From the NCBI GenBank assembly GCA_040882365.1, contig JBBEBI010000037.1, positions 9,419 through 73,418 on the forward strand: a stretch of 64,000 bases of DNA. Direction: 5' to 3'. Source of the DNA: Anaerolineales bacterium. GTDB lineage: Bacteria > Chloroflexota > Anaerolineae > Anaerolineales > UBA11579. A program made the translations under genes and the position numbers. The first letter of the stretch is position 1. Each line of letters opens with the position of its first letter. Shown here one piece after another: positions 18,978 through 54,895 of the stretch. Below the pieces are notes generated by a model. The model was given only the letters and a program-made list of their open reading frames with translations, was not told where the DNA came from and did not search any database.

Positions 18978-20492
18978 ATGCTCAAGACACTTGTCCCCAT
19001 CGGTCTGATCCTGGCTATGCTGGCCTGCAATTTCCCTACCACCACGGTAGGCGAGGCCAACACGGCCGTCCCGATTCCCACCCTGCAGAGCACACCGCTG
19101 GGCGCGGTTGTTCCGCCTCCCACCCTCCCGCCAACCCGCGATCCCAGCCTGCCCGTTACCACTCCCACCCCGGATAATGCCCACAGCCTGCCCACGGTGC
19201 GCAGCGATTACGTTGAGTACGTCGTGCAGCCTTATGATTACCTCAGTGCCATCGCCGACCAATTCGGTATCACACTCGAGGACCTTATCGCGTCTAACAA
19301 TCTGGCCGATCCCAACGCATTGGAAGTTGGCCAGATCTTGCTTATTCCTCCGCAAACCCCGGTCAGCCCTGGACCGGATTTCAAGATCATCCCCGACTCG
19401 GAACTAGTGAACGGCCCAGCCGCCCTATCCTTTAACGTGGCCGCCTTCGTGGATGCGCAGCCCGGCTACCTCAAGCAGCATCGCGAAGAAGTTGACCAGA
19501 TCTTCTTCAGCGGGGCTGAAATTGTGCAGCGCGTGTCCATTGAATATTCCGTCAATCCGAAATTACTGCTGGCGGTGCTCGAATTCCAAAGCGGCTGGCT
19601 GAGTGACCCCAACCCACGCAGCAGTACGGTCGATTTTCCTATGGGGATCACAGACGTTTGGCGTATCGGCCTGTATCGCCAGCTCTCCTGGGCGGCCGAC
19701 CGATTGAACCAAGGCTACTACGATTGGAACGAGGGACTGATCGCCGGCTGGCACACATCTGATTCCGTTCTTGTTCCCGCCTCGCCATCTATCAACGCTG
19801 GCACCGCGGGAGTCCAATACATATTTTCACTGCTTTATCCCCAAGACCAATGGCGCGAGATCGTTTCTTCTGGTGGTTTCGACGCTACCTACACGAGTTT
19901 TTTTGGCTATCCCTTCGACCTGGCAATTGATCCACTCGTGCCCATGGATTTGACCCAACCCACCATGCAATTACCTTTCGAGCCTGGCGTTCCTTGGGTT
20001 TTCAGCGGCGGACCGCACGGCGGCTGGGGCGAAGGATCTGGTTGGGCCGCGTTGGATTTTGCCCCGCCCGATATGTTGGGTTGTAACACTGGCGATGAAT
20101 GGGTGGTGGCGGTCACTGATGGATTGGTCGTACGCTCGGAGAACGGCGTGGTCGTGCAAGACATCGACAATGACGGTTATGAGCAAACCGGTTGGACCGT
20201 CCTATATTTGCACGTCGCCGCCGATGGGCGTGTGCAAGCGGGGCGAACCGTGCATGCCGGAGACCGCATTGGCCACCCCTCGTGCGAAGGTGGCGTTGTG
20301 ACTGCCACTCATCTGCACCTGGCGCGCCGATATAATGGAGAGTGGATACCTGCGTCCGGATCGAACCCGTTCATCCTCGACGGGTGGGTCGCCACCAGCA
20401 GCGGCGACTTATACGATGGGGTGCTGCAGCGCGGCGGGCAAAGCGTGGAGGCTTGCGAGTGCCGGGACCCCGCCCACATGCTCCAACGATAA
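18978..20492 (+). CDS. LysM-domain M23-like metallopeptidase lipoprotein, paralog 1
   Basis: Lipobox LILAMLAC. LysM is YVVQPYDYLSAIADQFGITLEDLIASNNL..ALEVGQILLIP. The C-terminal part has GGPHGGW...AALDFAP and ATHLHLARRYNGEWI (HxH), which are LytM/M23-type metal ligands. Confidence 0.8.
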   Translation: MLKTLVPIGLILAMLACNFPTTTVGEANTAVPIPTLQSTPLGAVVPPPTLPPTRDPSLPVTTPTPDNAHSLPTVRSDYVEYVVQPYDYLSAIADQFGITLEDLIASNNLADPNALEVGQILLIPPQTPVSPGPDFKIIPDSELVNGPAALSFNVAAFVDAQPGYLKQHREEVDQIFFSGAEIVQRVSIEYSVNPKLLLAVLEFQSGWLSDPNPRSSTVDFPMGITDVWRIGLYRQLSWAADRLNQGYYDWNEGLIAGWHTSDSVLVPASPSINAGTAGVQYIFSLLYPQDQWREIVSSGGFDATYTSFFGYPFDLAIDPLVPMDLTQPTMQLPFEPGVPWVFSGGPHGGWGEGSGWAALDFAPPDMLGCNTGDEWVVAVTDGLVVRSENGVVVQDIDNDGYEQTGWTVLYLHVAADGRVQAGRTVHAGDRIGHPSCEGGVVTATHLHLARRYNGEWIPASGSNPFILDGWVATSSGDLYDGVLQRGGQSVEACECRDPAHMLQR

Positions 20493-23586: not shown

Positions 23587-23648
23587 ATGCCAGCTAAGAG
23601 AACTTGGCCAACCAGCACTTCTCAAATCGCCCCCATATAATCGTTGTG

Positions 23649-25193
23649 ATGTTTCGCTCAGCCAAGAGACGGCTTTGTGCCCTAATCCTCACCTCTGCCA
23701 TGCTGGTCTCGAGCTGCCTTCCAGCGGCAGTTGCTAGCATATCCCCCGTTCTCACCCAAACCGCCACTCCCAACCCGACGGCCACGCAACCCGTAATCAC
23801 TTCCACTCCGCTGCCTACGCGGCCCGCTTATGATCCCGGGCAACTTGTAGACTACACCGCCCAAACTGGAGATAACCTGATCGCCTTGGCCGCGCGCTTC
23901 AACACTACCATCGAAGACATTCTTGCCGCCAATCCCATCGTCCCGCAGACCGCCACCACGCTTCCGCCCGGCCTGCCTATGCAAATCCCCATCTATTACC
24001 GAGCATATTGGGGCACGTCCTATCAGATCATCCCCGACAGCCTCTTCGTCAACGGACCCGCGGCTGTGGATTTCGACACTCAGACTTTCGTGGATTCGCA
24101 GCCCGGATGGCTGAAGGATTACCGCGGCTATGCTTCCGGCAGCATGCGCACCGGTGCAGGTTTGGTGGACCTGGTGGCCACCAATTTCAGCGTTAGTCCG
24201 CGGCTATTGCTGGCGCTCCTGGAATTCCAGGCGGGCGCCCTCAGCCAGCCTGCTGTAGACCCGGCGAAGGCAACTTATCCGTTGGGATACGAAAACCGCG
24301 GCCATTCGGGCGTGTATTTACAATTGGTGTGGGCCGCCAATCAGCTCAACAATGGCTACTACGCCTGGCGCAAGGGGAAGCTCACCGAATTCGAAAGGCC
24401 CGACGAAACCATATACAGGCCCGATCCCTGGCAGAATGCCGCCACTGTTTCCTTGCAGCTTTTTTTCAACATCACGGAGCCTTTGCAAACCTTCGAAGCG
24501 GCCATCGGCCCCGAGGGTTTGGCACTGACTTTCGCCAACCTTTTCGGCGACCCCTGGGTCAGCGCCGTGGCTCACATCCCGGGCAGCTTAGTTCAACCCG
24601 AGTTCCGCCTGCCCTTTCCGCCCAGGCAGGTTTGGTCCCACACTGGTGGCCCTCATACCGGTTGGGGGCAGGGAGAACCGTTCGCCGCGCTGGACTTTGC
24701 CCCCGGGGAGCAACGCGGCTGCTTCGCCACAGGCCAGTGGGCTACTGCCGTTGCTGATGGATTGGTTGTGCGCACGGACGTTGGTGTGGTCGTGCTGGAT
24801 TTAGATGGCGATGGAGATGAGCGCACGGGCTGGGTGGTCTTCTATCTGCACTTGGCAAAGGAGGAAAAAGCCCGGGTAGGCGACCAACTGGCCGCCGGGC
24901 AGCCTGTCGGCCATCCCTCGTGCGAGGGCGGTTCTTCTACAGGCACACACGTGCATTTAGCCCGCAAATACAATGGCGAGTGGATCGAGGCGGCGGGCGC
25001 TTTGCCCTTTGTGATGGAAGGCTGGATTCCAGATGAAGGAACGGCGGCCTATTCCGGTACCCTGGCTCGTCAGGGATACCTGATCCGGGCTTGCGTGGGC
25101 TGTTCCGATGCGGCCAGCGCCATCACATCCCAGGCGCCTGCCGTGGCTCTGCCCACGCCGGCGCCGGAACCGACAGCAGAACCTGGTTCCTGA
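23649..25193 (+). CDS. LysM-domain M23-like metallopeptidase lipoprotein, paralog 3
   Basis: Signal/lipobox MFRSAKRRLCALILTSAMLVSSC. LysM is YTAQTGDNLIALAARFNTTIEDILAANP. Catalytic-type motifs are GGPHTGW...AALDFAP and GTHVHLARKYNGEWI. The track start is 23604. Confidence 0.8.
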   Translation: MFRSAKRRLCALILTSAMLVSSCLPAAVASISPVLTQTATPNPTATQPVITSTPLPTRPAYDPGQLVDYTAQTGDNLIALAARFNTTIEDILAANPIVPQTATTLPPGLPMQIPIYYRAYWGTSYQIIPDSLFVNGPAAVDFDTQTFVDSQPGWLKDYRGYASGSMRTGAGLVDLVATNFSVSPRLLLALLEFQAGALSQPAVDPAKATYPLGYENRGHSGVYLQLVWAANQLNNGYYAWRKGKLTEFERPDETIYRPDPWQNAATVSLQLFFNITEPLQTFEAAIGPEGLALTFANLFGDPWVSAVAHIPGSLVQPEFRLPFPPRQVWSHTGGPHTGWGQGEPFAALDFAPGEQRGCFATGQWATAVADGLVVRTDVGVVVLDLDGDGDERTGWVVFYLHLAKEEKARVGDQLAAGQPVGHPSCEGGSSTGTHVHLARKYNGEWIEAAGALPFVMEGWIPDEGTAAYSGTLARQGYLIRACVGCSDAASAITSQAPAVALPTPAPEPTAEPGS

Positions 25194-43179: not shown

Positions 43180-46100
43180 ATGGCCATCTTGCTCACTAAA
43201 GTGCGTCCGCCGCAACGGCGCAAAGATGTCCTGCGGCGGGTGCGCTTGATCGACATCCTCCACCAAAATCTGCACCGCAAGCTAACGTTTGTCTCGGCTC
43301 CTGCAGGTTACGGCAAAACCACCCTTTTGGTGGATTTTGCCGCGGATGTGGACGCCATCGTGTGTTGGTACCGCATCAGCCCGGAAGACAACGACCTGGT
43401 CCAATTCGTCGCACACTTGATTGCCGCCTTCCAACAACAGGTAGCCAACTTCGGCAAGGAACTGGAAGAGAAGCTCAACTCCATGGGTGGCGCGCCTGAC
43501 GCCGCCACCTTGGCCGTCGATTTCATCAACGAGGTCGAGCAAAAGGTAGACGACTTTTCCTTGCTGGTGTTGGACGACTATCACCTGGCGGGGGAGAACC
43601 AGCAGATCGTGGATTTCGTCGAGAATTTCCTCGAGCACCTGCCTGACAGGTTGCGCATACTGATTGGCTCGCGCAGCGTGTATGGCATCCCCACGGCGAA
43701 CTTGTACGTTCGCGACGAACTAGTGACTATCAGCGCGGAAGAGCTTCGCTTCCGGGCCGAAGAGCTGCAAAAGCTGGTGCTGCAGAATTACCGCATCCGC
43801 CTGAGCGACGAGCAAGCTGATGAGTTCGCCAAGCGGGCCGATGGCTGGATCATCGCCATCCTGCTGGCCCTGCGCACCATGGAGAACGGCACCCTGCCCA
43901 AGCTTAGCGGGGGCATCCAGCAGGTGTATGAGTATCTGGCAGAAGAAGTCGTCAGCCGGCAAAGTGAGCACTTGCGGGATTTCATGCTGGCCACTTCCAT
44001 CCTGGGGGATTTCAACGAGGCGTTGTGCAATTACCTGCTGGAGCGCAAGGATTCGGCATCTTCCCTGCAAGCGCTGGAGGACCGCAACCTGTTCGTCAGC
44101 CGCACCGAAATGACGGAAGGCCCCAGCTATCGCTACCATCAACTTTTTTCAGAGTTCCTGCAAGATTATTTTGGCCGCACGCAAAAGCCGCGGCTGGCAG
44201 CGCTGCACCACCGGGCCGCCGAGTGGCATCGCGGCCGCAAGGAATGGGAAGCTGCGATCGACCACAAGCTGGCGGCGGGCGATAAGGAAAAGGCGGCGGC
44301 GTGGATCGACAAGGTGGCCAAGGAATATTATGTGGCGGGAAGACAGGCCCTCTTGGCGCGCTGGGTGACAGCCTTGGGCACGGACCCCAACATGCAAAAG
44401 GAAGCGCCACGCCTTTTGTTGTACCATGCGAAGTTCCTAGTAAATCAAAGCAGGTTCGCAGAGAGTCTAAGGCCACTGGATATCGCGAATCCAGCATTTA
44501 AACATGAAGGGGATTTCGACTTACTAGCGAATGTGGCCATCACCCGGGGTATGGTGGCGAGGTTTACTGGAGAATATAAGCAAGCTATCAATTTGGCCCA
44601 GCAAGCCCAGGATTTGCTAAACAAGAAGTCGAAGCGGAGACGACATTCGCTACAGTGGTATCAAGCGGAGCGCCTTAAGGGCCTCCCTACGTATTTTCTT
44701 GGGGACATCCGAGGTGCAATCAAATATTTGAAGGCAGCGGTAGCGGGATTCCGCCGCTTGGGATCTGTGGGTCGAGGGAATCACAAATTTGGGAACTTAT
44801 ATGATTTGGCCGAGACCCTGAACGATTTGGGATTGGTATATATAAATAACGGCCAACTGCTTGACGCGCAACAAGCATTTCAAGAAACCCTGGATATCCA
44901 TATCAACCTGCGCAGCAATTTGGGCGCGTTAGCGTCTGCTCGCAATAACATCGCCTATCTCCATCATCAGATTGGACAATACGCAGAAGCGTGGCATGAA
45001 TACTCTTTGGCGTTAGAACATGCTCGGGCCGCAAATCTAATTCGTGTCCAAGTCGCCATATTAAATGGGCGTGGTGATTTGCTGCTAGACGTTGGTGAAA
45101 AAGAGGAAGCCGAAAGAAGCTTTCAGCAAGCACACTCACTCCCCGGGGAACCCACCGAACTCGTCGGTACATTTGCAGGTCTCGCCCGCGTTGAGCGCCT
45201 TAGAGGACACTTTAGCGAATCAATGAATTGGCTGCGAAGAGGGGCCAGTTTTCGAGGGGGCGCGATGGATGAAACCGATTACGCATTAGAAATGGGAAAT
45301 GTCTATGCGGGCATGGGACAACTCGATCTAGCGCTAAGAGAATTCGAAAAAGCTATGGCTGGCTGGCCCAAGCAGAAAGCCCCCAAGCAATCCCAGGTGA
45401 TGGCCGCATTTTTGGCCGCCAAGACCCATCTTCAAAAGCAACAAGCCCAAAAAGCAGAAAAGCTATTGAATAAGGCCCTTGAGGGCGCAGCCCGCTTGGG
45501 TTACGATCAGTTTCTCGTCGCCGCAGCCAGATGGAGCAACAATTTTCTATCCCAGTTCGTACAGACTAACTCATCCGAGCAAATAAAGGCTTTAGCTGAA
45601 CGAGCGGCCAATTTTATTCCTGGCAAAGCAGCCCTAGAACGAAAATCGTCCGAACCGACGGTAAGGTCAATTCACATCGAAGTACAGGCCTTTGGTCCGG
45701 GAGAAATCCGTCTAGATGGGGAATTGCTTTCAATGAGTGTTTGGCGATCTAGCCGTGCCAGGGCCCTTTTCTTTTATCTCCTAGATCGCGGAAGGGCACG
45801 CAAGGATACTATTGGATTGGACTTTTGGCCTGATTTCAGTTCGGGAAAGATCAGCAGCAATTTTCACGCCACCTTATGGCGAGTACGGCAGGCTCTGGGC
45901 TTCAAGGAAGCCATCGTCTATGAGCAAGATCATTACAGCCTTCACCCCTCGTTCGGGATCTGGTACGACGTATGGGAATTTGAAAGCTATTTGAAAAAAG
46001 CTGGCGAAGAACAACTTTCTAAACGTGCCAGGGGCGAGTTGCTAAAGCAAGCCCTGGACTTGTACAAACAGTCCTACTTGCAGGACATATTCATGGAATG

Positions 46101-46413
46101 GACGGATCGCAGGCGGGAAGAGCTGCGCGCCCTTTATGTCGATGCACTACTCGATCTGGCTTCCATGGAAGCCGAAAGCAAACACTATCGGGAAGCCAAG
46201 CTACTTTATGAGAAAATCCTGGGTGTCGACCCCTATCGTGACGAGGTACATCTATCTTTAATGAAATGCCTAGCGCTATCTGGCGCCCCTTCGGCAGCCA
46301 TCGCCCATTTCAAGCAATACAGAGCCTTACTGCGCAAGGAGCTGAATGCAGAACCCTTGCGGGAGCTGCGTGAGTATTACAATCAGTTATCGATAAAGGC
46401 ACAGACACCTTAA
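43180..46413 (+). CDS. STAND-class regulator: MalT-type P-loop NTPase, TPR-like helical repeats, and a C-terminal SARP module (OmpR-type wHTH plus BTAD)
   Basis: The N terminus LTKVRPPQRRKDVLRRVRLIDIL...FVSAPAGYGKTTLL...WYRISPEDNDLVQF is MalT-like. The C-terminal ~250 aa have IEVQAFGPGEIRLDG...RARALFFYLL...FHATLWRVRQAL (wHTH), then YDVWEFE...ALDLYKQSYLQD...W...RREELRALYVDALLDLA...YEKILGVDPYRDEVHLSLMKCLALSG...AIAHFKQYRALLRKELNAEP (BTAD). Confidence 0.8.
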   Translation: MAILLTKVRPPQRRKDVLRRVRLIDILHQNLHRKLTFVSAPAGYGKTTLLVDFAADVDAIVCWYRISPEDNDLVQFVAHLIAAFQQQVANFGKELEEKLNSMGGAPDAATLAVDFINEVEQKVDDFSLLVLDDYHLAGENQQIVDFVENFLEHLPDRLRILIGSRSVYGIPTANLYVRDELVTISAEELRFRAEELQKLVLQNYRIRLSDEQADEFAKRADGWIIAILLALRTMENGTLPKLSGGIQQVYEYLAEEVVSRQSEHLRDFMLATSILGDFNEALCNYLLERKDSASSLQALEDRNLFVSRTEMTEGPSYRYHQLFSEFLQDYFGRTQKPRLAALHHRAAEWHRGRKEWEAAIDHKLAAGDKEKAAAWIDKVAKEYYVAGRQALLARWVTALGTDPNMQKEAPRLLLYHAKFLVNQSRFAESLRPLDIANPAFKHEGDFDLLANVAITRGMVARFTGEYKQAINLAQQAQDLLNKKSKRRRHSLQWYQAERLKGLPTYFLGDIRGAIKYLKAAVAGFRRLGSVGRGNHKFGNLYDLAETLNDLGLVYINNGQLLDAQQAFQETLDIHINLRSNLGALASARNNIAYLHHQIGQYAEAWHEYSLALEHARAANLIRVQVAILNGRGDLLLDVGEKEEAERSFQQAHSLPGEPTELVGTFAGLARVERLRGHFSESMNWLRRGASFRGGAMDETDYALEMGNVYAGMGQLDLALREFEKAMAGWPKQKAPKQSQVMAAFLAAKTHLQKQQAQKAEKLLNKALEGAARLGYDQFLVAAARWSNNFLSQFVQTNSSEQIKALAERAANFIPGKAALERKSSEPTVRSIHIEVQAFGPGEIRLDGELLSMSVWRSSRARALFFYLLDRGRARKDTIGLDFWPDFSSGKISSNFHATLWRVRQALGFKEAIVYEQDHYSLHPSFGIWYDVWEFESYLKKAGEEQLSKRARGELLKQALDLYKQSYLQDIFMEWTDRRREELRALYVDALLDLASMEAESKHYREAKLLYEKILGVDPYRDEVHLSLMKCLALSGAPSAAIAHFKQYRALLRKELNAEPLRELREYYNQLSIKAQTP

Positions 46414-46469
46414 GGAGGCTCTATCGCGGAGGTAGATTGATTGTCTATTAGCGAATCATTGATGCCAGC

Positions 46470-46499
46470 AAGGCTGCTCAAACGGGTGGCCTTTTTTTG
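46470..46499 (+). terminator. Weak candidate terminator after the STAND/SARP gene
   Basis: AAGGCTGC...GTGGCCTT is an imperfect stem with two G-U pairs and an 8-nt loop. TTTTTTGT follows. Confidence 0.3.
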
Positions 46500-46546
46500 T
46501 CTCAGGGCATGCAGCTTGCTCAGAGATACGTTCATAGGGCGTCTCC

Positions 46547-46552
46547 TAGAAT
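46547..46552 (+). promoter_or_regulatory. Candidate -10 element (TAGAAT) for the small-peptide genes
   Basis: TAGAAT lies ~40 nt upstream of ATG 46591. There is no good -35 at 17-18 bp, which would fit an activator-dependent promoter. Pattern only. Confidence 0.2.
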
Positions 46553-46590
46553 GCGCCCACTAACCTAACTATGTTTTATGGAGGATTCAC

Positions 46591-46782
46591 ATGTTCAATA
46601 GCACAAAAGTTCAGTTCAACCAACCCTGCGGCGGCGGCGTGGGCACCGGCCCTACCTTCGCCCAGCCCTGCGGTGGCGGCGTAGGCACCGGCCCTAGCTT
46701 TGCGCAGCCCTGCGGTGGCGGCGTGGGCACCGGCCCTAGCTTTGCGCAGCCCTGCGGTGGCGGCGTGGGCACCGACCATTAA
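46591..46782 (+). CDS. 63-aa Gly/Cys/Pro-rich tandem-repeat peptide (candidate multi-core RiPP precursor)
   Basis: MFNSTKVQFN + QPCGGGVGTGPTFA + QPCGGGVGTGPSFA + QPCGGGVGTGPSFA + QPCGGGVGTDH*. GGAGGA (46580-46585) lies 5 nt before the ATG. Five of the six nucleotide differences between copies 1 and 2 are synonymous third positions in this frame, and the sixth gives Thr/Ser. Confidence 0.6.
   Translation: MFNSTKVQFNQPCGGGVGTGPTFAQPCGGGVGTGPSFAQPCGGGVGTGPSFAQPCGGGVGTDH
46621..46782. repeat. 42-bp direct tandem repeat, ~3.8 copies
   Basis: Units are at 46621-46662, 46663-46704, 46705-46746 and 46747-46782 (last copy diverged and truncated). The consensus is CAGCCCTGCGGTGGCGGCGTGGGCACCGGCCCTAGCTTTGCG. 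Copies 2 and 3 differ at one base, and copy 4 matches copy 3 for 28 nt. Confidence 0.95.
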
Positions 46783-46828
46783 GTTGACCCATATTTTGTT
46801 TGATCCGATTCTGAATAAGGAGCTTGAA

Positions 46829-47044
46829 ATGTCTAAACTCAAATTGAACGCCATTGCTACCCAGGCTTTGCTGGATAACGAATTCAAGACCGCCCTCCTG
46901 AACGGGCAGGTGCAGGACCGACTAAGCGCCTTCCAATTGAATGACGAGGAAGTGCGGGCGGTGATGTCCATCCAGGCTATGGATCTGGACCAGTTTATCC
47001 GCCACCTGAGCGGGCTCATCCAACCGTCGGCGTCTGCCGCCTGA
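46829..47044 (+). CDS. 71-aa NHLP/Nif11-leader-like small protein
   Basis: MSKLKLNAIATQALLDNEFKTALLNGQVQDRLSAFQLNDEEVRAVMSIQAMDLDQFIRHLSGLIQPSASAA. AAGGAG (46817-46822) lies 6 nt before the ATG. The xALLDxEFKxALLxG...FxLxxEExxAv pattern resembles nitrile-hydratase-leader-type (NHLP clan) small proteins as I recall them. Confidence 0.6.
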   Translation: MSKLKLNAIATQALLDNEFKTALLNGQVQDRLSAFQLNDEEVRAVMSIQAMDLDQFIRHLSGLIQPSASAA

Positions 47045-47169
47045 GGCTGCTGCGGCGGCTGACAAGCTTAGAACCACAGACCATTACGGTCTGGCATATT
47101 TGAGGGCGAGGGTAAATGTGCTTTATCCTCTCGCCGTCATAAAGGCTTGCCAGCCTGAATAGAGGTAAA

Positions 47170-50100
47170 TTGGCCCGCGGGCCAGAAAGCGACTTGAACT
47201 CGAGGATGCTAGTAGAATCGTTCAACGAAGAGCAGGCGCTGAATGGCAATGGACGCTTTGCAGGCAGGGCCGTGAAGGCAGGTAACCTGGGTGCTGAAGG
47301 CGAGCACACAGAAGAGCTGGCTGCCCTGGCTATTGCGGGCGCCAGCATCCTCTCCAGCCTGGAATTCGAAAAAGTCCTCCAAATCGTCGCCCGGCAGCTG
47401 ACTAACCTGCTGGATGTGCCGATCTGCATCCTCGCCGATTCCTCGCCGAACCCTGGAAAGATCAAGCCTTACCTAAAGTTCGTTAATCTGCAAATCACCA
47501 GGTTGCCGCGTAAATACGAAGTCACGTCTTTATCCGAAAACCTGGCGCTCACCGCAGTAGTTGAGAAAGCCAAACCCCTGCAAATGGGGCTGGACGAGCC
47601 CGGGCTCTCCACAAAACAGAAAACCGCTTTTAAGAAGGCAGGCGTCTCCACTATTCTGCTATTGCCACTGATGGCCCAAAGCAAAACGCTGGGCCTGGTG
47701 GAATTGCAGGAGACCCGAGGCGTGCGCCGCTTCACCGATCGAGAGATTTATCTGGCCCAGACTCTTTGCCATCAGGCCGCGGCCGCCATTGAGAATGCGC
47801 GGCTATTCGAGGCCACCCGCCGCCAGCTGCAGGAGTTGAGCCTTCTCCACCAGGTCTCTCTTGCCAGCACCGAAGCCACCACTGAAACTGAACTTATTGA
47901 ACGCACCACCCAACTTATCCGCGAAAACCTGTATCCCGACAACTTCGGCGTGTTGCTATTGGACCAGGATGGCTCCCATCTCAATATTCACCCTTCCTAC
48001 CAGGCAGGAAAACCGCTGAACGCGCCGACTATCCTATTGGGCCAAGGCATCACAGGGCAAGTGGCTTCGCTGGGCATGCCTTTACGCGTCGGCGACATCA
48101 GAGCGGAAGCGAATTACCTGGGTTACGATCAAGATACCCTTTCCGAATTATGTGTGCCCATGAAGATTGGAGAGCGCCTGGTAGGTGTTATTAACGCTGA
48201 GAGTCGCGAACTCAATCACTTCACTGAGAAGGATGAGCGGTTGCTCCTGACTCTAGCCGGGCAACTAGCCAGCGGGATCGAGAGGCTGCGCAACGCGGCC
48301 GCCGAACGCCGCCGCGGCAAGCAACTCAGCATCCTAAATAAACTCACGGGGGAAATGAGCGGTGTGCTGGACCGCGATCGCCTGTTCAAGGTGGTCGTGG
48401 AGCGCTTGAACAAAGAAATGAATTATGTATCCACAGACATTTCTATTGTGGATGAGGAAGCACACGAATATGTGACGGCCGCGGTGAGTGGCACCTTTGC
48501 CTCCCTGGTTCCGGCGGGCGGTTATCGGCAGCCCTTTGGGATGGGCCTGCTGGACCGCGCGGCCATCACCGCCGAGGTGGTGGTGGCGAACAATGTCCAC
48601 GACCGCCCAGAATACATTCTGGTGCCCGGGCATGAAATGATCAATTCGGAACTGATTATTCCTATAAAGATCTACAAGCGCGTGGTTGCGCTGCTCAACG
48701 TCGAAAGCAACGAATTGAACGCCTTTGACCAGCATGAGGTCGGCGCGTTAAGCACGCTGTGCGAACAGATATCGATCGCACTGGAGGGAATCAGCCTATT
48801 TGACTCCACACGAAGGCAATTGCAGGAATTGACGGTATTGCACGCCATCACGCATGCAGCCGTAAATGCCAAGAGCGAGGACGAGCTTCTGGAACGGGCC
48901 ACCGAGATCATCGGCGACAGTTTATATCCGGACCAGTTCGGGTTCCTGATGCTTGACGACAATTCCCAGGTGCTACTCGTCAACCGCAGTTACCGGGGAA
49001 TCAGCGCCGAAATGAAGCGGCGGAGAGTGCCTCTTTCTCATGGTGTTGCCGGCCGAGTTGCTGCAACCGGAACACCCTGGCGCATTCCGAATGTCCTCAT
49101 AGAGCCGAACTACCTGCACGTTAGCCCCAACATGCTTTCTGAGTTGTGCGTACCCATCCTGGGGAATGCCAACCGGGTTCTCGGGGTCATCAATGCAGAA
49201 AGCGCCCAGTTGGACGCGTTTTCGGAAAAGGATTTGCGATTACTGAACACAATTGCCGGCCAGTTGGGGACCGCAATCGAGAAATTCCGCTTGTTCGAAT
49301 CCGAGCGCGTGCAGCGCGAGCAAGCCGAGACGCTGCGCGAAGTGGCTGCCATCTTGAGCAGCGAAACGGAAAGCTCGAAAGTGCTCGACCTGATTCTGGA
49401 GCAACTGAAGCGAGTGGTACCTTTTGACAGCGCTTCCATTCAAATCATTAAGGGTGAAAATCTGAGCATACGAGCCATAGCGGGATCGATGGAAGCGAGC
49501 GCTCTCGGCTATGAAATCCCCATCAGGGACGACCGATTTGCGCATCCTTTGCTTTACGAGCACCGCACAGTAGTCTACGAAGACATTAGCGATCATCCAG
49601 ACTGGCTGCAGGCTCCGGGGGCAACAAACGTAAAGTCCTGGATTGGCGCTCCACTGATAGTAGGTGGGGAATGCGTAGGCGTACTAACGGTGGACGGCTA
49701 TAAAGCCAACCAGTTTAGCGCGGCGGACGCACAATTGGTGTCTGCCTTTGCCATCCATGCCGGTATTTCCCTTGAGAACGCGCGCCTGTTCGAGGAAGCC
49801 CAGGAAGCCTATGTGCAGACGGTCAGTGCGCTGGCCAGCGCCATCGATGTGCGCGACAGCTACACCAGCGGCCACAGCCAGCGGTTGGCGGACTTGGCCG
49901 TGATGACGGGCGAAATGATGGAATGCAGCGATGAAGAGCTGGTGGACATCCGCTGGGGTGCTCTGCTGCACGACATCGGCAAGATCGGCGTGCCCGATGA
50001 GATCCTACGGAAACCGGGCATATTGGAAGCCCACGAGGAAGAGATCATGCGCCGGCACCCGGAAATAGGCTCACACATAGTGGCCGGAGTGAAGAATCTT

Positions 50101-50379
50101 TCCGGGGTGGCGCCCATTATTCGAGCGCACCAGGAACATTACGACGGCAAGGGCTACCCGGATGGATTGCGCAAAGATGCCATTCCCAAAACCGCCCGTA
50201 TCATTGCCGTGGCCGATGCCTATGTGGCCATGACGGATGAACGCGTGTACCGTAAATCACGTAGCCACGAGGAAGCGGTGGCAGAACTCAGGCGCTGCAG
50301 CGGTTCCCAGTTCGACCCCAAGGTGGTAAAGGCCTTCCTCAAGGCCATCGAAGAAAGAATCAACCCCGCTATAAAATAA
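47170..50379 (+). CDS. Multi-GAF (about 4-5 GAF domains) HD-GYP c-di-GMP phosphodiesterase
   Basis: Repeated GAF blocks carry recurring ...SELCVP(M/I)...GVINAES..LN.F(T/S)EKD..LL.T(L/I)AGQL...IE...LFE... motifs. The C-terminal part has SGHSQRLADLA...GALLHDIGKIGVPDEIL...HQEHYDGKGYPDGL...FDPKVV. The start is uncertain (TTG 47170 or ATG 47206). Confidence 0.85.
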   Translation: MARGPESDLNSRMLVESFNEEQALNGNGRFAGRAVKAGNLGAEGEHTEELAALAIAGASILSSLEFEKVLQIVARQLTNLLDVPICILADSSPNPGKIKPYLKFVNLQITRLPRKYEVTSLSENLALTAVVEKAKPLQMGLDEPGLSTKQKTAFKKAGVSTILLLPLMAQSKTLGLVELQETRGVRRFTDREIYLAQTLCHQAAAAIENARLFEATRRQLQELSLLHQVSLASTEATTETELIERTTQLIRENLYPDNFGVLLLDQDGSHLNIHPSYQAGKPLNAPTILLGQGITGQVASLGMPLRVGDIRAEANYLGYDQDTLSELCVPMKIGERLVGVINAESRELNHFTEKDERLLLTLAGQLASGIERLRNAAAERRRGKQLSILNKLTGEMSGVLDRDRLFKVVVERLNKEMNYVSTDISIVDEEAHEYVTAAVSGTFASLVPAGGYRQPFGMGLLDRAAITAEVVVANNVHDRPEYILVPGHEMINSELIIPIKIYKRVVALLNVESNELNAFDQHEVGALSTLCEQISIALEGISLFDSTRRQLQELTVLHAITHAAVNAKSEDELLERATEIIGDSLYPDQFGFLMLDDNSQVLLVNRSYRGISAEMKRRRVPLSHGVAGRVAATGTPWRIPNVLIEPNYLHVSPNMLSELCVPILGNANRVLGVINAESAQLDAFSEKDLRLLNTIAGQLGTAIEKFRLFESERVQREQAETLREVAAILSSETESSKVLDLILEQLKRVVPFDSASIQIIKGENLSIRAIAGSMEASALGYEIPIRDDRFAHPLLYEHRTVVYEDISDHPDWLQAPGATNVKSWIGAPLIVGGECVGVLTVDGYKANQFSAADAQLVSAFAIHAGISLENARLFEEAQEAYVQTVSALASAIDVRDSYTSGHSQRLADLAVMTGEMMECSDEELVDIRWGALLHDIGKIGVPDEILRKPGILEAHEEEIMRRHPEIGSHIVAGVKNLSGVAPIIRAHQEHYDGKGYPDGLRKDAIPKTARIIAVADAYVAMTDERVYRKSRSHEEAVAELRRCSGSQFDPKVVKAFLKAIEERINPAIK

Positions 50380-53545: not shown

Positions 53546-54895
53546 TTGGCGCGCCTGGAAGCCAAATATGCGCGACTGGTGATAGAGAAGGGTTTTCTGG
53601 AGCGAGCGGTCAAGGACCTGAATTTCCACAACAATGCCCACGACGGCATTGTGTACACCGACATCCAGGACCGCATCATTTATGCCAATCCTTATTTCCT
53701 GGGAATGATGGGGGTGAAAGAAAAAAGCGAATTGGTGAACAAGCCGTTCCCCAATTATGTGTGGAAGAACCAACGCGAAGCCGAGCGGCTATTTAGCGAT
53801 ATCAAGAAAGACGGCTTTGTGCGCGAACGCGAAATGTCCTTGAGCAACAAGGATGGACAGCCGGTATTCGCCATGTGTTCGGCAGTGGCCAATAAGGACG
53901 AAGACGGCAACATCGTGGGCACCGAGCTCATGTTCTGCAACATCACCAGCAAGCGCACCTTCCAGGCCGAATTGGTCGAACAGCACGCCTTGCTAGATGC
54001 CATGCTGCAAAGCACCCCCGACCCGATCCTGATCCTGACCTCGGCGCTGGACATTAACCGGCTGAACCCGGCGGCCAGCGCCCTGTTCGGCCTCGAGACC
54101 TACAAAGCGCGGCAGCCTTTGGCCGCCGTGTTTACCAAGGCTGGCCTGGCGCCGGAGATCGTTCAAAAAATGGAAGCGCGCTTCGTGGCGGAACAGGCCT
54201 TCGAACTGGAAATAACATTGCACGGGGAGCACTTTGAATTCCACGCAGCCCCGCTGCGGTCGACGCAGAAGGGTTGGGTGTGCAGTTTGCACAACATCAC
54301 GGTGCGCAAGCAGACCCAGGAAATGTTGCAAAGGCATGCCTTCCACGATGTGCTGACCCAGCTCCCCAACCGAGCCTACTTCCGCGATCATTTGCAGCGC
54401 GCCCGCCTGCGTAGTAAGGGCGAACCCGCCTACCGCTTCGCCACGCTGTTCATCGATATGGACAGCCTCAAGTCGATCAACGACAAGTGGGGGCATGACG
54501 CGGGAGACCAGGTGCTGATGCAATTCGCGCGCCGATTGGAGAGCAGCATCCGGCCCGGCGACCTGGCTGCGCGGCTTGGCGGGGACGAATTCGCCGTGTT
54601 CGTCGACGGCGTGGCCGACGAGGATAGAGCGCGCCAGGTGGCGACGCGCATCCGCGACGCCCTGTCGCTGCCTTTCAAGCTGCGCGGCGAAGCCGAATTG
54701 CACACCACCGCCAGCATCGGCATCGCGTTAGCAGGAGCGTTGACCGCGGATGTGGATGCGTTGTTGCGCAACGCCGACCAGGCCATGTACCGCGTCAAGC
54801 AGCGCGGCGGTAATGGATTTGAGATGTTCGGAGAAGAGCTCCTGGCCGCATCCCCCCAATTAGCCCAAATCATGAAACCGAAAAGGACGCGGTAA
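53546..54895 (+). CDS. PAS-PAS-GGDEF diguanylate cyclase
   Basis: Two PAS-like regions, then HDVLTQLPNRAYF...FIDMDSLKSINDKWGHDAGD...RPGDLAARLGGDEFAV. The GGDEF motif is intact and an RxxD I-site lies 5 residues upstream. TTG 53546 is the first conventional in-frame start, so the true 5' end is uncertain. Confidence 0.85.
   Translation: MARLEAKYARLVIEKGFLERAVKDLNFHNNAHDGIVYTDIQDRIIYANPYFLGMMGVKEKSELVNKPFPNYVWKNQREAERLFSDIKKDGFVREREMSLSNKDGQPVFAMCSAVANKDEDGNIVGTELMFCNITSKRTFQAELVEQHALLDAMLQSTPDPILILTSALDINRLNPAASALFGLETYKARQPLAAVFTKAGLAPEIVQKMEARFVAEQAFELEITLHGEHFEFHAAPLRSTQKGWVCSLHNITVRKQTQEMLQRHAFHDVLTQLPNRAYFRDHLQRARLRSKGEPAYRFATLFIDMDSLKSINDKWGHDAGDQVLMQFARRLESSIRPGDLAARLGGDEFAVFVDGVADEDRARQVATRIRDALSLPFKLRGEAELHTTASIGIALAGALTADVDALLRNADQAMYRVKQRGGNGFEMFGEELLAASPQLAQIMKPKRTR

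What the first reader, a model, noticed from the sequence alone, without database searches (positions are those of the whole stretch)
46591..46782. Tandem-repeat Cys/Gly/Pro peptide gene: candidate multi-core RiPP precursor
A 63-aa ORF with a strong SD (GGAGGA, 5-nt spacer) encodes a 10-aa N-terminal segment. Three full copies and one truncated copy of QPCGGGVGTGP(S/T)FA follow. At the DNA level this is a 42-bp tandem repeat. Five of the six differences between copies 1 and 2 are synonymous third-position changes in this frame and the sixth is Thr/Ser, which argues for selection on the peptide. Copies 2-4 are nearly identical, pointing to recent expansion or gene conversion. There is no signal peptide or TM segment. 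Each unit has one Cys, a Thr and a Ser/Thr next to Gly or Pro, which is a typical azole-forming or thioether context. Each unit also has exactly two Pro, so cutting after Pro would release CGGGVGTGP 9-mers and (S/T)FAQP spacers. That is formally the P|core-P| logic used by prolyl-oligopeptidase-type macrocyclases, and xP-SFA loosely recalls cyanobactin xP-AYD junctions. I know of no described family with this repeat. No maturation enzyme is encoded in the window.
Basis: partly seen in the sequence, partly recalled or inferred. Interest (0 to 1): 0.85.

Follow-up and report, generated by a model that had tools for sequence, protein, structure and literature searches.

The report
Conserved tandem-repeat micro-protein beside AfsR-like regulator
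The 63-codon repeat ORF is a real gene for an undescribed family of small glycine-rich repeat proteins in Anaerolineales bacteria; it most resembles the Streptomyces afsR–afsS regulator/small-repeat-protein pair rather than a Cys-based modified-peptide precursor, and its function is unproven.

Summary
Window 46591-46782 (+) encodes MFNSTKVQFN + 3.7 × QPCGGGVGTGP(S/T)FA behind a GGAGGA Shine-Dalgarno site.

It is a genuine gene. About 20 Anaerolineales genomes carry an ortholog at the same place, always in frame, with 2-5 units. P-x-G-G-G-[I/V]-G is invariant in 16 aligned orthologs, with rare G→S and I→T variants elsewhere.

Copies within one gene differ by 432 synonymous but only 18 non-synonymous codon changes. 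The species-specific residue x (C/L/V/M/I/R/T) is nevertheless the same in nearly all copies, so unit identity is selected.

The Cys is not conserved, and no maturase, protease or exporter lies in the window or in any related locus. The azole/thioether and P|core-P| arguments therefore fail.

The gene lies directly downstream of a MalT-type ATPase–TPR–BTAD/SARP regulator. Its promoter lacks a −35 element and has two TCATAG direct repeats exactly 8 bp from the −10 in 17 of 17 loci.

It is paired with a 71-aa helical protein remotely related to the Os1348/NHLP clan. The two genes duplicate together as a cassette.

Best reading (about 0.4): an AfsS-like multivalent partner and output of the adjacent regulator. 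A remote-enzyme RiPP or pheromone precursor is not excluded.

The parts
43180..46413 (+). 1077-aa regulator: MalT-type STAND ATPase (N-terminus), winged-helix and TPR sensor region, C-terminal BTAD (SARP-type) domain
   Evidence: NCBIfam MalT 9e-78 over residues 6-486. Pfam TPR_12 and BTAD (5e-18, residues 930-1070). PDB: MalT 8bob 1.8e-35. The only specific PDB match of the C-terminal profile, other than generic TPR-repeat proteins, is the AfsR SARP domain 8hvr, 5e-7. The OmpR-type DNA-binding sub-domain expected at residues ~830-930 was not detected by Pfam or PDB profiles. Present upstream of the peptide gene in every related locus that extends far enough upstream.
46470..46500 (+). Intrinsic terminator of the regulator gene
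   Evidence: 10-bp stem followed by a T-run. A hairpin plus T-run is conserved at this position in 21 aligned loci.
46520..46538 (+). Activator box: two direct repeats, TCAGAG-N6-TCATAGG (consensus TCATAG-N6-TCATAGG), occupying the place of a -35 element
   Evidence: Identical geometry in 17 of 17 loci. The consensus occurs exactly once per ~16-kb locus, in 21 of 33 loci with zero mismatches. It is the only good match in the 64-kb window.
46547..46552 (+). -10 hexamer TAGAAT, exactly 8 bp downstream of the 3' repeat; no -35 consensus
   Evidence: TAnnnT lies 8 bp after TCATAGG in 17 of 17 loci, and 32-40 nt before the ATG. The sigma-70 scan finds no complete promoter on the + strand.
46580..46585 (+). 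Shine-Dalgarno GGAGGA of the peptide gene
   Evidence: A GGAGG/GGAGA-type site is conserved 5-9 nt before the ATG in all orthologs.
46591..46782 (+). Repeat micro-protein gene (63 aa): 10-aa N-terminus plus 4 units containing P-x-GGG-[IV]-G
46620..46774 (+). 42-bp x 3.7 tandem repeat at the DNA level
   Evidence: TRF score 261.
46829..47044 (+). 71-aa all-helical protein, remote Os1348/NHLP-clan relative. It is the cassette partner of the peptide gene and has its own AAGGAG Shine-Dalgarno site at 46817-46822.
   Evidence: 57 homologs at 65-93% identity, all from Anaerolineales/Chloroflexota. NF038399 at 20.8 bits against a cut-off of 40; 25 of 27 members hit it and nothing else. PF14407 E=0.008. 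PDB 6lk7 E=0.08. Duplicated together with the peptide gene in L011 and L018.
47103..47136 (+). Conserved stem-loop (GYGAGGG...CCCTCRC) between the 71-aa gene and the GAF/HD-GYP gene; no T-tail
   Evidence: 9-pair consensus stem in 12 loci, with 2 pairs showing compensatory changes. Function unknown.
47170..50379 (+). Protein with five GAF domains and an HD-GYP-type domain (exact start codon uncertain); always the next gene downstream
   Evidence: Pfam GAF_2 in 5 stretches, HD_5 5e-38. Conserved position in all loci. Whether it is co-transcribed is not established.

Best explanation
The ORF encodes a small, probably disordered, glycine-rich protein made of 2-5 copies (4 here) of a ~12-residue linear motif, hydrophobic-x-[N/D/A]-[Q/H/Y]-P-x-G-G-G-[I/V]-G-[T/S/G].

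Shown:
- It is translated sequence under strong purifying selection.
- All units of one protein are kept identical by selection.
- It is the first gene of a two-gene cassette, with a 71-aa helical protein distantly related to the NHLP clan.
- The cassette lies directly downstream of a STAND ATPase-TPR-BTAD regulator.
- It sits behind a promoter without a -35 element, carrying two direct repeats whose 3' copy is 8 bp from the -10.

Inferred:
- The SARP-type domain of the adjacent regulator binds the TCATAG repeats and recruits RNA polymerase, as AfsR does at the afsS promoter.
- The repeat protein then acts through protein-protein contacts, like AfsS. Its identical units would serve as a multivalent ligand for a (homo-oligomeric) partner. 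The most likely partner is the TPR sensor region of the same regulator; the 71-aa partner protein is an alternative.
- This would give a feedback or co-regulatory loop whose output may include the downstream GAF/HD-GYP phosphodiesterase.

On this reading it is a regulatory micro-protein, not a modified natural product.
For: 1. Coding and selection.
- The ortholog is in frame in ~20 loci. P, GGG, [IV] and G are invariant in all four repeats of 16 aligned sequences.
- Window versus L010: 25 synonymous and 8 non-synonymous codon changes.
- Gly, Pro and Ile codons vary freely at invariant residues.

2. Selection for identical units.
- 432 synonymous versus 18 non-synonymous codon differences between copies within a gene.
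- The lineage-specific x residue is encoded by different codons in different copies, for example Leu by TTG/CTC/CTG and Ile by ATA/ATT/ATC.

3. Promoter.
- TCATAG-N6-TCATAGG-N8-TAnnnT in 17 of 17 loci, unique in each locus.
- SARP targets are direct repeats whose 3' repeat is 8 bp from the -10 (PMC10936776).

4. Regulator.
- BTAD domain present; the only specific PDB relative of the C-terminal part, other than generic TPR-repeat proteins, is AfsR.
- STAND NTPase plus TPR.

5. The AfsS precedent (PMC10832544).
- afsS lies immediately downstream of afsR and encodes 63 aa with three 12-aa repeats.
- AfsS-like proteins share little sequence identity but all have 2-5 repeats.
- The repeats are required for AfsR binding.
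- AfsS orthologs are operationally defined by synteny plus internal repeats (bioRxiv 10.64898/2026.09.02.748808).

6. Context.
- No enzymes, exporter or protease in any locus.
Against: - No detectable sequence similarity to AfsS motifs (TxxDNHMPxxPA, NTHITD).
- The regulator has a MalT-type rather than NB-ARC ATPase, and the opposite domain order (ATPase-TPR-SARP).
- Its winged-helix DNA-binding sub-domain could not be confirmed by Pfam, PDB profiles or AF2.
- The direct repeats are 12 bp apart, not the canonical 11 or 22 bp.
- Synteny is seen only within one order, so adjacency to the regulator could be inherited rather than functional.
- A sub-family with a 37-aa N-terminal extension occurs without this regulator or box, in L031 and L033.
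- AfsS has no NHLP-like partner gene.
- No binding, expression or processing data exist.
Confidence: 0.4

Rival explanations
1. It is a multi-copy precursor of a small peptide, either a RiPP or an unmodified signal or antimicrobial peptide. The identical units would be excised, and perhaps modified, by enzymes encoded elsewhere in the genome. The 71-aa NHLP-like protein would act as co-precursor, recognition partner or chaperone, and the mature peptide could be sensed by the TPR regulator (RRNPP/arbitrium-like logic).
For: - Selection keeps all units identical while they differ between species, as expected if each unit yields the same product.
- Copy number varies 2-5 in frame.
- The partner gene's only similarity is to Os1348/NHLP-clan and Frankia_peptide families. 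These belong to the LigA-like fold group found in RiPP precursors and recognition proteins (PMC12353581).
- The peptide and 71-aa genes duplicate as one cassette.
- NHLP/Nif11 precursors can lie far from their maturases (own knowledge; Haft 2010, PMC2887384, was listed but not read).
- A small peptide gene immediately after a TPR-regulator gene is the RRNPP arrangement (own knowledge).
Against: - No leader, signal peptide or Gly-Gly cleavage motif.
- No conserved Cys, Ser or Thr.
- The conserved part is the core and the variable part is the spacer.
- The last unit often ends right at GGG[IV]G-x, with no C-terminal recognition sequence.
- No maturase, protease, ABC or C39 exporter, or oligopeptide permease in the window or in ~20 loci.
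- An exhaustive profile search found no fusion to, or co-family with, known precursor classes.
Confidence: 0.27
2. It is a cis-acting leader ORF. Translation of the Gly-rich repeat (ribosome pausing or Gly-tRNA sensing) would tune expression of the downstream 71-aa and GAF/HD-GYP genes, and the peptide itself would have no function.
For: It is a short ORF at the 5' end of an operon, 30-95 nt upstream of the next gene, and very rich in Gly codons.
Against: - No terminator or antiterminator structure lies between the peptide gene and the 71-aa gene, which has its own strong Shine-Dalgarno site.
- No Rfam element.
- Gly codons are used interchangeably.
- Selection acts on non-Gly residues and on identity of the units.
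- The downstream genes have no link to glycine metabolism.
Confidence: 0.06
3. It is a functional small protein of another kind. Examples: a metal- or phosphate-binding glycine-loop peptide (prion-octarepeat-like PHGGGWGQ, or an RTX-like GGxGxD turn), or a direct modulator of the downstream GAF/HD-GYP enzyme together with the 71-aa protein.
For: - Weak Pfam hit to Prion_octapep, E=0.0047 and 17 bits against a cut-off of 32. P-x-GGG-hydrophobic-G matches the octarepeat pattern.
- Some units read GGxGxD.
- The GAF/HD-GYP gene is always next.
Against: - No metal-ligand residue is conserved. L012, L016 and L027 have none in the unit.
- The Asp of GGxGxD is usually Gly, and the period is 13-14 residues rather than 9.
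- Adjacency to the GAF gene is not separable from order-wide synteny.
Confidence: 0.15
4. It is a non-coding minisatellite, or a gene-caller artefact in GC-rich DNA.
For: - Many gene callers skip it: no gene was called in L004 or L029.
- The antisense frame is also open in the window.
- One lineage (L018/L028) carries frameshifted copies.
Against: - Frame +1 is open in 17 of 17 orthologs and the other frames are not.
- Conserved ATG and Shine-Dalgarno site.
- 432:18 synonymous to non-synonymous differences.
- All copy-number changes are in frame.
- L018 has an intact second copy.
Confidence: 0.02

Closest known systems
AfsS (AfsR2) with AfsR, Streptomyces
   Same: - A small gene (63 aa in S. 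coelicolor, 63 aa here) immediately downstream of a large ATPase+TPR+SARP regulator.
- Built of 2-5 short tandem repeats.
- Weak cross-species identity, but the repeat architecture is kept.
- A promoter with two direct repeats replacing the -35, with the 3' repeat 8 bp from the -10.
- No DNA-binding domain and no enzymes nearby (PMC10832544, PMC10936776, bioRxiv 10.64898/2026.09.02.748808).
   Different: - No sequence similarity; the repeat motif is glycine-rich (PxGGG[IV]G) rather than TxxDNHMPxxPA or NTHITD.
- The regulator has a MalT-type NTPase and its SARP-type domain at the C-terminus.
- Box period is 12 bp, not 11.
- The phylum is Chloroflexota, not Actinomycetota.
- It is coupled to a 71-aa NHLP-like gene.
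- The repeat core is much more conserved across species than in AfsS.
Multi-core RiPP precursors (cyanobactin PatE type, multi-core microviridins/graspetides, thiovarsolin-type)
   Same: Tandem in-frame repeated units in a short ORF, variable copy number, and Pro-flanked units.
   Different: No leader or recognition sequences, no adjacent maturase or protease, the core is conserved while the spacer varies, and no conserved modifiable residue. (The comparison families are recalled from own knowledge.)
Os1348 family NHLP-clan protein / Pfam Frankia_peptide (PF14407); PDB 6lk7
   Same: The neighbouring 71-aa protein aligns over ~55 residues to these models. 25 of 27 members hit NF038399 and nothing else. 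It is predicted to be all-helical.
   Different: - Scores are about half the curated cut-off.
- There is no Gly-Gly site, and only a 6-9-residue variable tail in place of a core.
- The GNAT, HEXXH and SagB-type genes that flank Os1348 in Pseudomonas (PMC7726476) are absent here.
RRNPP / arbitrium peptide signalling (TPR receptor gene followed by a small peptide gene)
   Same: A TPR-containing transcription regulator is followed directly by a short peptide gene, and peptide sequence diversifies between species.
   Different: No secretion signal, no permease, a STAND/SARP rather than HTH-TPR receptor, and a multi-copy rather than single mature peptide. (Comparison from own knowledge; not tested.)
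Prion octarepeat PHGGGWGQ (Pfam PF03991)
   Same: The pattern P-x-G-G-G-hydrophobic-G-polar in about four tandem copies; weak Pfam hit.
   Different: The score is below the cut-off, the His ligand is not conserved, and the lineages are unrelated. This looks like convergence of low-complexity sequence.

Membership tests
AfsS-like small repeat proteins | Short ORF (<200 aa) immediately downstream of, and on the same strand as, an AfsR-type regulator gene (the operational definition in bioRxiv 10.64898/2026.09.02.748808) | tested here: met
   The gene starts 178 nt after the regulator's stop codon, on the same strand. The same arrangement is seen in ~20 loci.
AfsS-like small repeat proteins | Two to five internal tandem amino-acid repeats | tested here: met
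   4 units here; 2, 3, 4 or 5 in relatives.
AfsS-like small repeat proteins | Promoter with SARP-type direct repeats overlapping the -35, with the 3' repeat 8 bp from the -10 | tested here: met
   TCATAGG-N8-TAnnnT in 17 of 17 loci, with no -35 consensus.
AfsS-like small repeat proteins | Direct repeats spaced 11 (or 22) bp apart | tested here: not met
   The period is 12 bp in all 17 loci.
AfsS-like small repeat proteins | Regulator with the AfsR architecture: N-terminal SARP, NB-ARC ATPase, C-terminal TPR | tested here: not met
   The order here is MalT-type ATPase, then TPR, then C-terminal BTAD. The winged-helix part of the SARP domain was not detected.
AfsS-like small repeat proteins | Sequence relationship to known AfsS repeat motifs | tested here: not met
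   By inspection against the motifs quoted in PMC10832544. No Pfam or NCBIfam family matches the peptide. No AfsS sequence was available for a direct alignment.
AfsS-like small repeat proteins | Repeat-dependent physical binding to the regulator | not testable with these tools
   Needs pull-down, MST or complex prediction.
Multi-core RiPP precursor (cyanobactin-like / TOMM-like) | N-terminal leader or flanking recognition sequences | tested here: not met
   Only 6-12 residues precede unit 1, and they resemble a spacer. The last unit often has no C-terminal flank.
Multi-core RiPP precursor (cyanobactin-like / TOMM-like) | Maturation enzyme, protease or exporter encoded nearby | tested here: not met
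   None in the 64-kb window or in related loci. Remote enzymes were not testable.
Multi-core RiPP precursor (cyanobactin-like / TOMM-like) | Conserved modifiable residue (Cys/Ser/Thr) in the core | tested here: not met
   Cys is replaced by L/V/M/I/R/T, and Thr by G/H/S.
Multi-core RiPP precursor (cyanobactin-like / TOMM-like) | A processed or modified product exists | not testable with these tools
   Needs LC-MS/MS.
Os1348 family NHLP-clan protein (applies to the 71-aa neighbour) | Score at or above the curated cut-off of NF038399 (40 bits) | tested here: not met
   20.8 bits, E=3e-4. 25 of 27 members hit it at E<=0.01, best 2e-5.
Os1348 family NHLP-clan protein (applies to the 71-aa neighbour) | Helical LigA-like/NHLP fold | tested here: inconclusive
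   The AF2 model is all-helical but of low confidence (pLDDT 60), and Foldseek against the PDB gave no match. The PDB sequence profile's top hit is 6lk7 at E=0.08.
Os1348 family NHLP-clan protein (applies to the 71-aa neighbour) | Neighbouring GNAT / HEXXH / SagB-type genes, as in the Os1348 cluster | tested here: not met
   Absent from all loci. Cluster composition is taken from PMC7726476.

The most novel reading that the evidence does not exclude
A natural split RiPP (or peptide-pheromone) system. The leaderless repeat peptide would supply 2-5 identical cores. The stand-alone 71-aa NHLP-type protein, encoded in the same cassette and duplicated with it, would act in trans as the leader or recognition module for maturases encoded elsewhere. 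Production would be switched on by the adjacent STAND-SARP regulator, whose TPR domain may sense the product.
Probability: 0.1. Interest if true: 0.9.

Novelty: new variant of a known kind. Interest (0 to 1): 0.6.

Why it matters
- This is a previously unannotated micro-protein family. An exhaustive search of 1.84 billion representative proteins found only about a dozen true members, none of them named or assigned to a Pfam family.
- It has an unusually clean evolutionary signature. Tandem units are kept identical at the protein level while their codons drift, and the unit sequence changes from species to species.
- If the AfsS-like reading is right, the regulator-plus-repeat-micro-protein module is not confined to actinomycetes. 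It would have arisen, or been rebuilt with a different ATPase and domain order, in Chloroflexota.
- That would give an independent system for asking how such repeat proteins act on STAND/NLR-type transcription factors, which is still unresolved for AfsS.
- If the rival reading is right instead, it would be a new peptide natural-product or signalling class in an uncultured, environmentally abundant order.

Tried and rejected
1. A single-sequence homology search with the peptide gave only two marginal hits. The family emerged only through the neighbouring 71-aa gene and then a profile search.

2. My first reading, that L011, L018 and L028 had lost the peptide while keeping the 71-aa gene, was wrong for L011 and L018. 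Both carry further intact peptide-71-aa cassettes downstream. The L028 contig ends too early to tell.

3. AF2 of the 71-aa protein was of low confidence (pLDDT 60), and Foldseek against the PDB found nothing.

4. Attempts to confirm the regulator's winged-helix sub-domain all failed.
- Pfam on the segment and on 14 orthologs gave no hit.
- A PDB profile search gave no hit.
- A single-sequence AF2 model had pLDDT below 50 in that part.
- By eye, the segment (LEVxAFGxGEIRxNGE...WRSxRARALFFYILD...FWPD...NFHxTLWRVRxALG) looks like a SARP/OmpR-type domain. That is my own judgement only.

5. Rfam found nothing in 46300-47500.

6. The metagenome scan for the N-terminally extended sub-family added only one short contig.

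7. Copper binding of the prion-octarepeat type was rejected because no ligand residue is conserved.

8. An RTX-like Ca-binding turn was rejected because the period is wrong and the Asp is not conserved.

9. Leader-peptide attenuation was rejected because no terminator or antiterminator is present.

10. The large eukaryote-like repeat proteins and the YPIGGGIGS proteins hit by the profile (P0075, P0077-P0086) are judged convergent low-complexity matches.

11. A resemblance to plant lyciumin cores (QP[YW]GVG[SI]W), recalled from memory, was not pursued. There is no BURP domain and no conserved Trp.

12. Some 2-unit variants come from very short contigs, where assembly collapse cannot be excluded. 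L029 (3 units) has units that differ at synonymous sites. L011 (1 and 3 units) and L030 (2 units, on a 72-kb contig) lie on long contigs. These variants are therefore likely real.
Full report
**1. The observation**

Window 46591-46782 (+) is a 63-codon ORF: MFNSTKVQFN followed by three full units QPCGGGVGTGP(T/S)FA and a truncated fourth, QPCGGGVGTDH. It is preceded by GGAGGA and a 5-nt spacer.

Tandem Repeats Finder reports a 42-bp unit x 3.7 at 46620-46774 with score 261. Nothing else in the 64-kb window scores above 52.

Copies 1 and 2 differ at six bases, five of them synonymous and one Thr/Ser. Copies 2 and 3 differ at one base.

**2. It is a real, conserved gene**

The peptide alone finds almost nothing in protein databases. 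The next ORF, 46829-47044 (71 aa), has 57 homologs at 65-93% identity, all from Anaerolineales/Chloroflexota metagenome-assembled genomes.

I fetched their loci and scanned one genome per species (19 loci). The closest is JBBDXR010000028.1, about 78% nucleotide identity to the window.

The arrangement recurs in every locus that extends far enough upstream:
- a large regulator;
- a terminator;
- a small repeat ORF;
- the 71-aa gene;
- a multi-GAF HD-GYP gene;
- then queA and ruvB.

The small ORF is in frame with a conserved ATG and Shine-Dalgarno site. In an alignment of 16 orthologs, the residues P, G, G, G and G of P-x-GGG-[IV]-G are invariant in each of the four repeats.

Further evidence for coding:
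- Window versus its nearest ortholog: 25 synonymous and 8 non-synonymous codon changes.
- Frame +1 is the only frame open in all 17 orthologs.
- Codons at the invariant Gly, Pro and Ile/Val positions vary freely.

Copy number is 4 in most genomes, 5 in L027, 3 in L029, P0065 and P0068, and 2 in L030 and several short contigs. It is always in frame.

An exhaustive profile search of 1.84 billion representative proteins found only about a dozen true members. None was fused to another domain. A profile search of the larger 90%-identity collection returned only unnamed 'hypothetical' entries without Pfam domains.

A non-coding minisatellite is excluded.

**3. An unusual selection signature**

Within each genome, the nine-residue core (residue before Pro, P, x, GGG, I/V, G, next residue) is almost always identical in every copy. 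At the DNA level the copies are only 84% identical.

Summed over 17 genomes, copies within a gene differ by 432 synonymous and 18 non-synonymous codon changes.

The lineage-specific residue x is C in the window and L, V, M, I, R or T elsewhere. It is the same in nearly all copies of a gene (L007 mixes Leu and Met), although often encoded by different codons: Leu by TTG/CTC/CTG in L012, Ile by ATA/ATT/ATC in L015.

So identity of the units is maintained by selection, not merely by recent duplication. Recent homogenisation does apply to copies 2-4 of the window itself.

This is expected in two situations. Either each unit gives the same product, or each unit binds an equivalent site on a partner that co-evolves.

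**4. What fails in the RiPP argument**

- The Cys is not conserved.
- The Thr after GGG[IV]G is Gly, His or Ser in other lineages.
- The second Pro is missing in L013 and L007.
- There is no leader. The few N-terminal residues look like one more spacer.
- The last unit frequently ends at GGG[IV]G-x with nothing after it.
- The conserved part is the core and the variable part is the spacer, the reverse of cyanobactin-type precursors.

Pfam scans of about 50 ORFs over the whole window found only housekeeping and signalling genes. These include RF1/PrmC, TopA, DprA, RimM, S16, DegV, pyrimidine-nucleoside phosphorylase, QueA, RuvB, UPRTase, TIM, PGK, CofD, RecJ, two-component systems, LysM-M23 peptidases and a PAS-GGDEF protein.

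The flanks of about 20 related loci are the same housekeeping genes.

L018 and L028 share their lesions, which marks a true pseudogene. L018 carries a second, intact copy.

**5. The neighbour gene and the cassette**

The 71-aa protein's only database similarities are to the following:
- NCBIfam NF038399, 'Os1348 family NHLP clan protein' (20.8 bits, cut-off 40; 25 of 27 family members hit it and nothing else);
- Pfam PF14407, Frankia_peptide (E=0.008);
- PDB 6lk7, an 85-aa chain deposited as 'Nitrile hydratase, alpha chain', consistent with the Os1348 crystal structure (E=0.08 with a profile).

These families belong to the LigA-like helical group found in RiPP precursors and recognition proteins (PMC12353581). 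Os1348 itself sits beside GNAT, HEXXH and SagB-type genes (PMC7726476), none of which is present here.

The AF2 model is all-helical but of low confidence, and gives no Foldseek hit.

In L011 and L018 the peptide gene and the 71-aa gene are duplicated together:
- L011: remnant, 71 aa, peptide with 1 unit, 71 aa, peptide with 3 units, 71 aa.
- L018: pseudogene, 71 aa, peptide with 4 x QPLSGGIGG, 71 aa.

The two genes behave as one cassette. Gaps between them are 29-95 nt without a terminator. This corrected my earlier reading that the peptide had been lost in these genomes.

**6. The regulator and the promoter**

The upstream gene (43180-46413) encodes three parts:
- a MalT-type STAND ATPase (NCBIfam 9e-78; PDB 8bob 1.8e-35);
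- TPR repeats;
- a C-terminal BTAD domain (Pfam 5e-18). Among PDB matches other than generic TPR-repeat proteins, its only specific relative is the SARP domain of AfsR (8hvr, 5e-7 with a profile).

The OmpR-type winged helix that should precede the BTAD could not be confirmed by any tool. By eye it resembles one.

After the regulator's terminator (46470-46500), all loci share TCATAG-N6-TCATAGG-N8-TAnnnT. This lies 32-40 nt before the ATG, with no -35 consensus. In the window it reads TCAGAG ATACGT TCATAGG (46520-46538), then GCGTCTCC, then TAGAAT (46547-46552).

The box occurs once per locus and once in the window.

SARP target promoters are defined by direct repeats whose 3' repeat lies 8 bp from the -10. 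The repeats are normally 11 or 22 bp apart (PMC10936776). Here the 8-bp rule holds exactly, and the period is 12 bp.

**7. The closest known system**

In Streptomyces, afsS lies immediately downstream of afsR (SARP + ATPase + TPR). Its known properties:
- It encodes 63 aa with three 12-aa repeats in S. coelicolor, and 87 aa with four repeats in S. avermitilis.
- It is activated by AfsR binding to direct repeats at the -35.
- AfsS binds AfsR through its repeats and increases AfsR's promoter affinity (PMC10832544).

Because BLAST fails, AfsS orthologs are now defined by synteny plus internal repeats (bioRxiv 10.64898/2026.09.02.748808).

By that operational definition the window's ORF qualifies. 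By sequence, regulator architecture (MalT-type ATPase; SARP at the C-terminus), box period and phylum, it does not. I therefore treat it as working like AfsS, not as a member of that family.

**8. Proposed mechanism**

Shown:
- a translated repeat micro-protein whose units are kept identical;
- a cassette with an NHLP-like 71-aa protein;
- an activator-type promoter beside a BTAD regulator.

Inferred:
- the regulator binds the TCATAG repeats and turns on the cassette;
- the repeat protein acts as a multivalent short-linear-motif ligand, most plausibly for the TPR sensor of the oligomerising STAND regulator, or alternatively for the 71-aa protein;
- this gives feedback or co-regulation, with the downstream GAF/HD-GYP enzyme as a possible output.

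Confidence is about 0.4.

**9. Rivals**

- Multi-copy precursor of a processed peptide (RiPP or signal) matured by remote enzymes: about 0.27. The NHLP-like partner, the cassette behaviour and the selection for identical units keep it alive.
- Another small-protein function (metal or anion loop, or modulator of the HD-GYP enzyme): about 0.15.
- Leader-ORF regulation: about 0.06.
- Non-coding repeat: about 0.02.

**10. Verdict**

The specific RiPP chemistry proposed is not supported.

The best-supported analogy is an AfsR/AfsS-type regulator and repeat-micro-protein module in Chloroflexota, coupled to an NHLP-clan-like small protein. It is a new variant of a known kind, with interest of about 0.6.

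A 10% tail remains for a genuinely new split-leader RiPP or peptide-signalling system.

Noticed in passing
window 47103-47136 (+); also L010:8272-8319, L012:8258-8307, L030:7475-7521 and others: A conserved stem-loop, GYGAGGG-loop-CCCTCRC, lies between the 71-aa gene and the GAF/HD-GYP gene and is usually followed by CTTAAG. It has a 9-bp consensus stem in 12 loci with two compensatory pairs, no T-tail and no Rfam match. The L019-L026 clade has a different conserved sequence at this position.
   Followed up: partly
L011:7600-8730 and L018:7750-8810: The peptide + 71-aa cassette is tandemly duplicated (three 71-aa genes in L011, two in L018). Peptide copies have 0, 1 and 3 units in L011. L018 has a pseudogene copy plus an intact copy with the variant unit QPLSGGIGG (first Gly replaced by Ser).
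   Followed up: yes
L031:640-927, L033:889-1164; proteins P0060-P0063, P0065: A sub-family carries a conserved 37-aa N-terminal extension (MDARHYHPKSLAQLRTDALTR...VLAAVLQHP) before 3-4 PxGGG[IV]GS units. It is found in GC-rich short contigs without the regulator or the TCATAG box. Neighbours are an FkbM methyltransferase plus a membrane protein (L031) and a GH25 muramidase (L033). The extension could be a leader.
   Followed up: partly
L007:3107-5570: An IS element (HTH_38 + rve integrase) is inserted in the regulator gene, leaving only a 229-aa BTAD fragment. The peptide and 71-aa genes are intact and identical to those in L008 and L009.
   Followed up: no
window 46576-47019 (-) and 46700-47044 (+): A 147-aa antisense ORF and a 114-aa TTG-extended ORF overlap the two small genes. 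Both are artefacts of Gly-codon-rich DNA. The antisense frame is broken in L017, L023 and L007, and all homologs of the 71-aa protein start at MSKLKLNAI.
   Followed up: yes
proteins P0075 (L032) and P0084: AT-rich, apparently eukaryotic contigs encode secreted-looking glycine-rich proteins with YP[IV]GGGIGS repeats. This is probably convergent low-complexity sequence. L032 does not translate to the query with table 11.
   Followed up: partly
window 18978-20492 and 23604-25193 (+): Two paralogous LysM + M23 peptidase genes (the lysostaphin-type family that cuts Gly-Gly bonds) flank a 577-aa ORF with no Pfam hit and a beta-lactamase-family gene. They lie more than 20 kb from the peptide gene and are probably cell-wall enzymes.
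   Followed up: no
window 53546-54895 (+) and 47170-50379 (+): A PAS-GGDEF diguanylate cyclase lies 3 kb from the 5xGAF HD-GYP phosphodiesterase, separated by queA, ruvB and upp. This may form a local c-di-GMP module.
   Followed up: no
L004:5744-5944, L029:143-292: Gene callers missed the peptide gene in several public assemblies, or called a spurious ORF on the opposite strand instead. This explains why the family is nearly absent from protein databases.
   Followed up: yes
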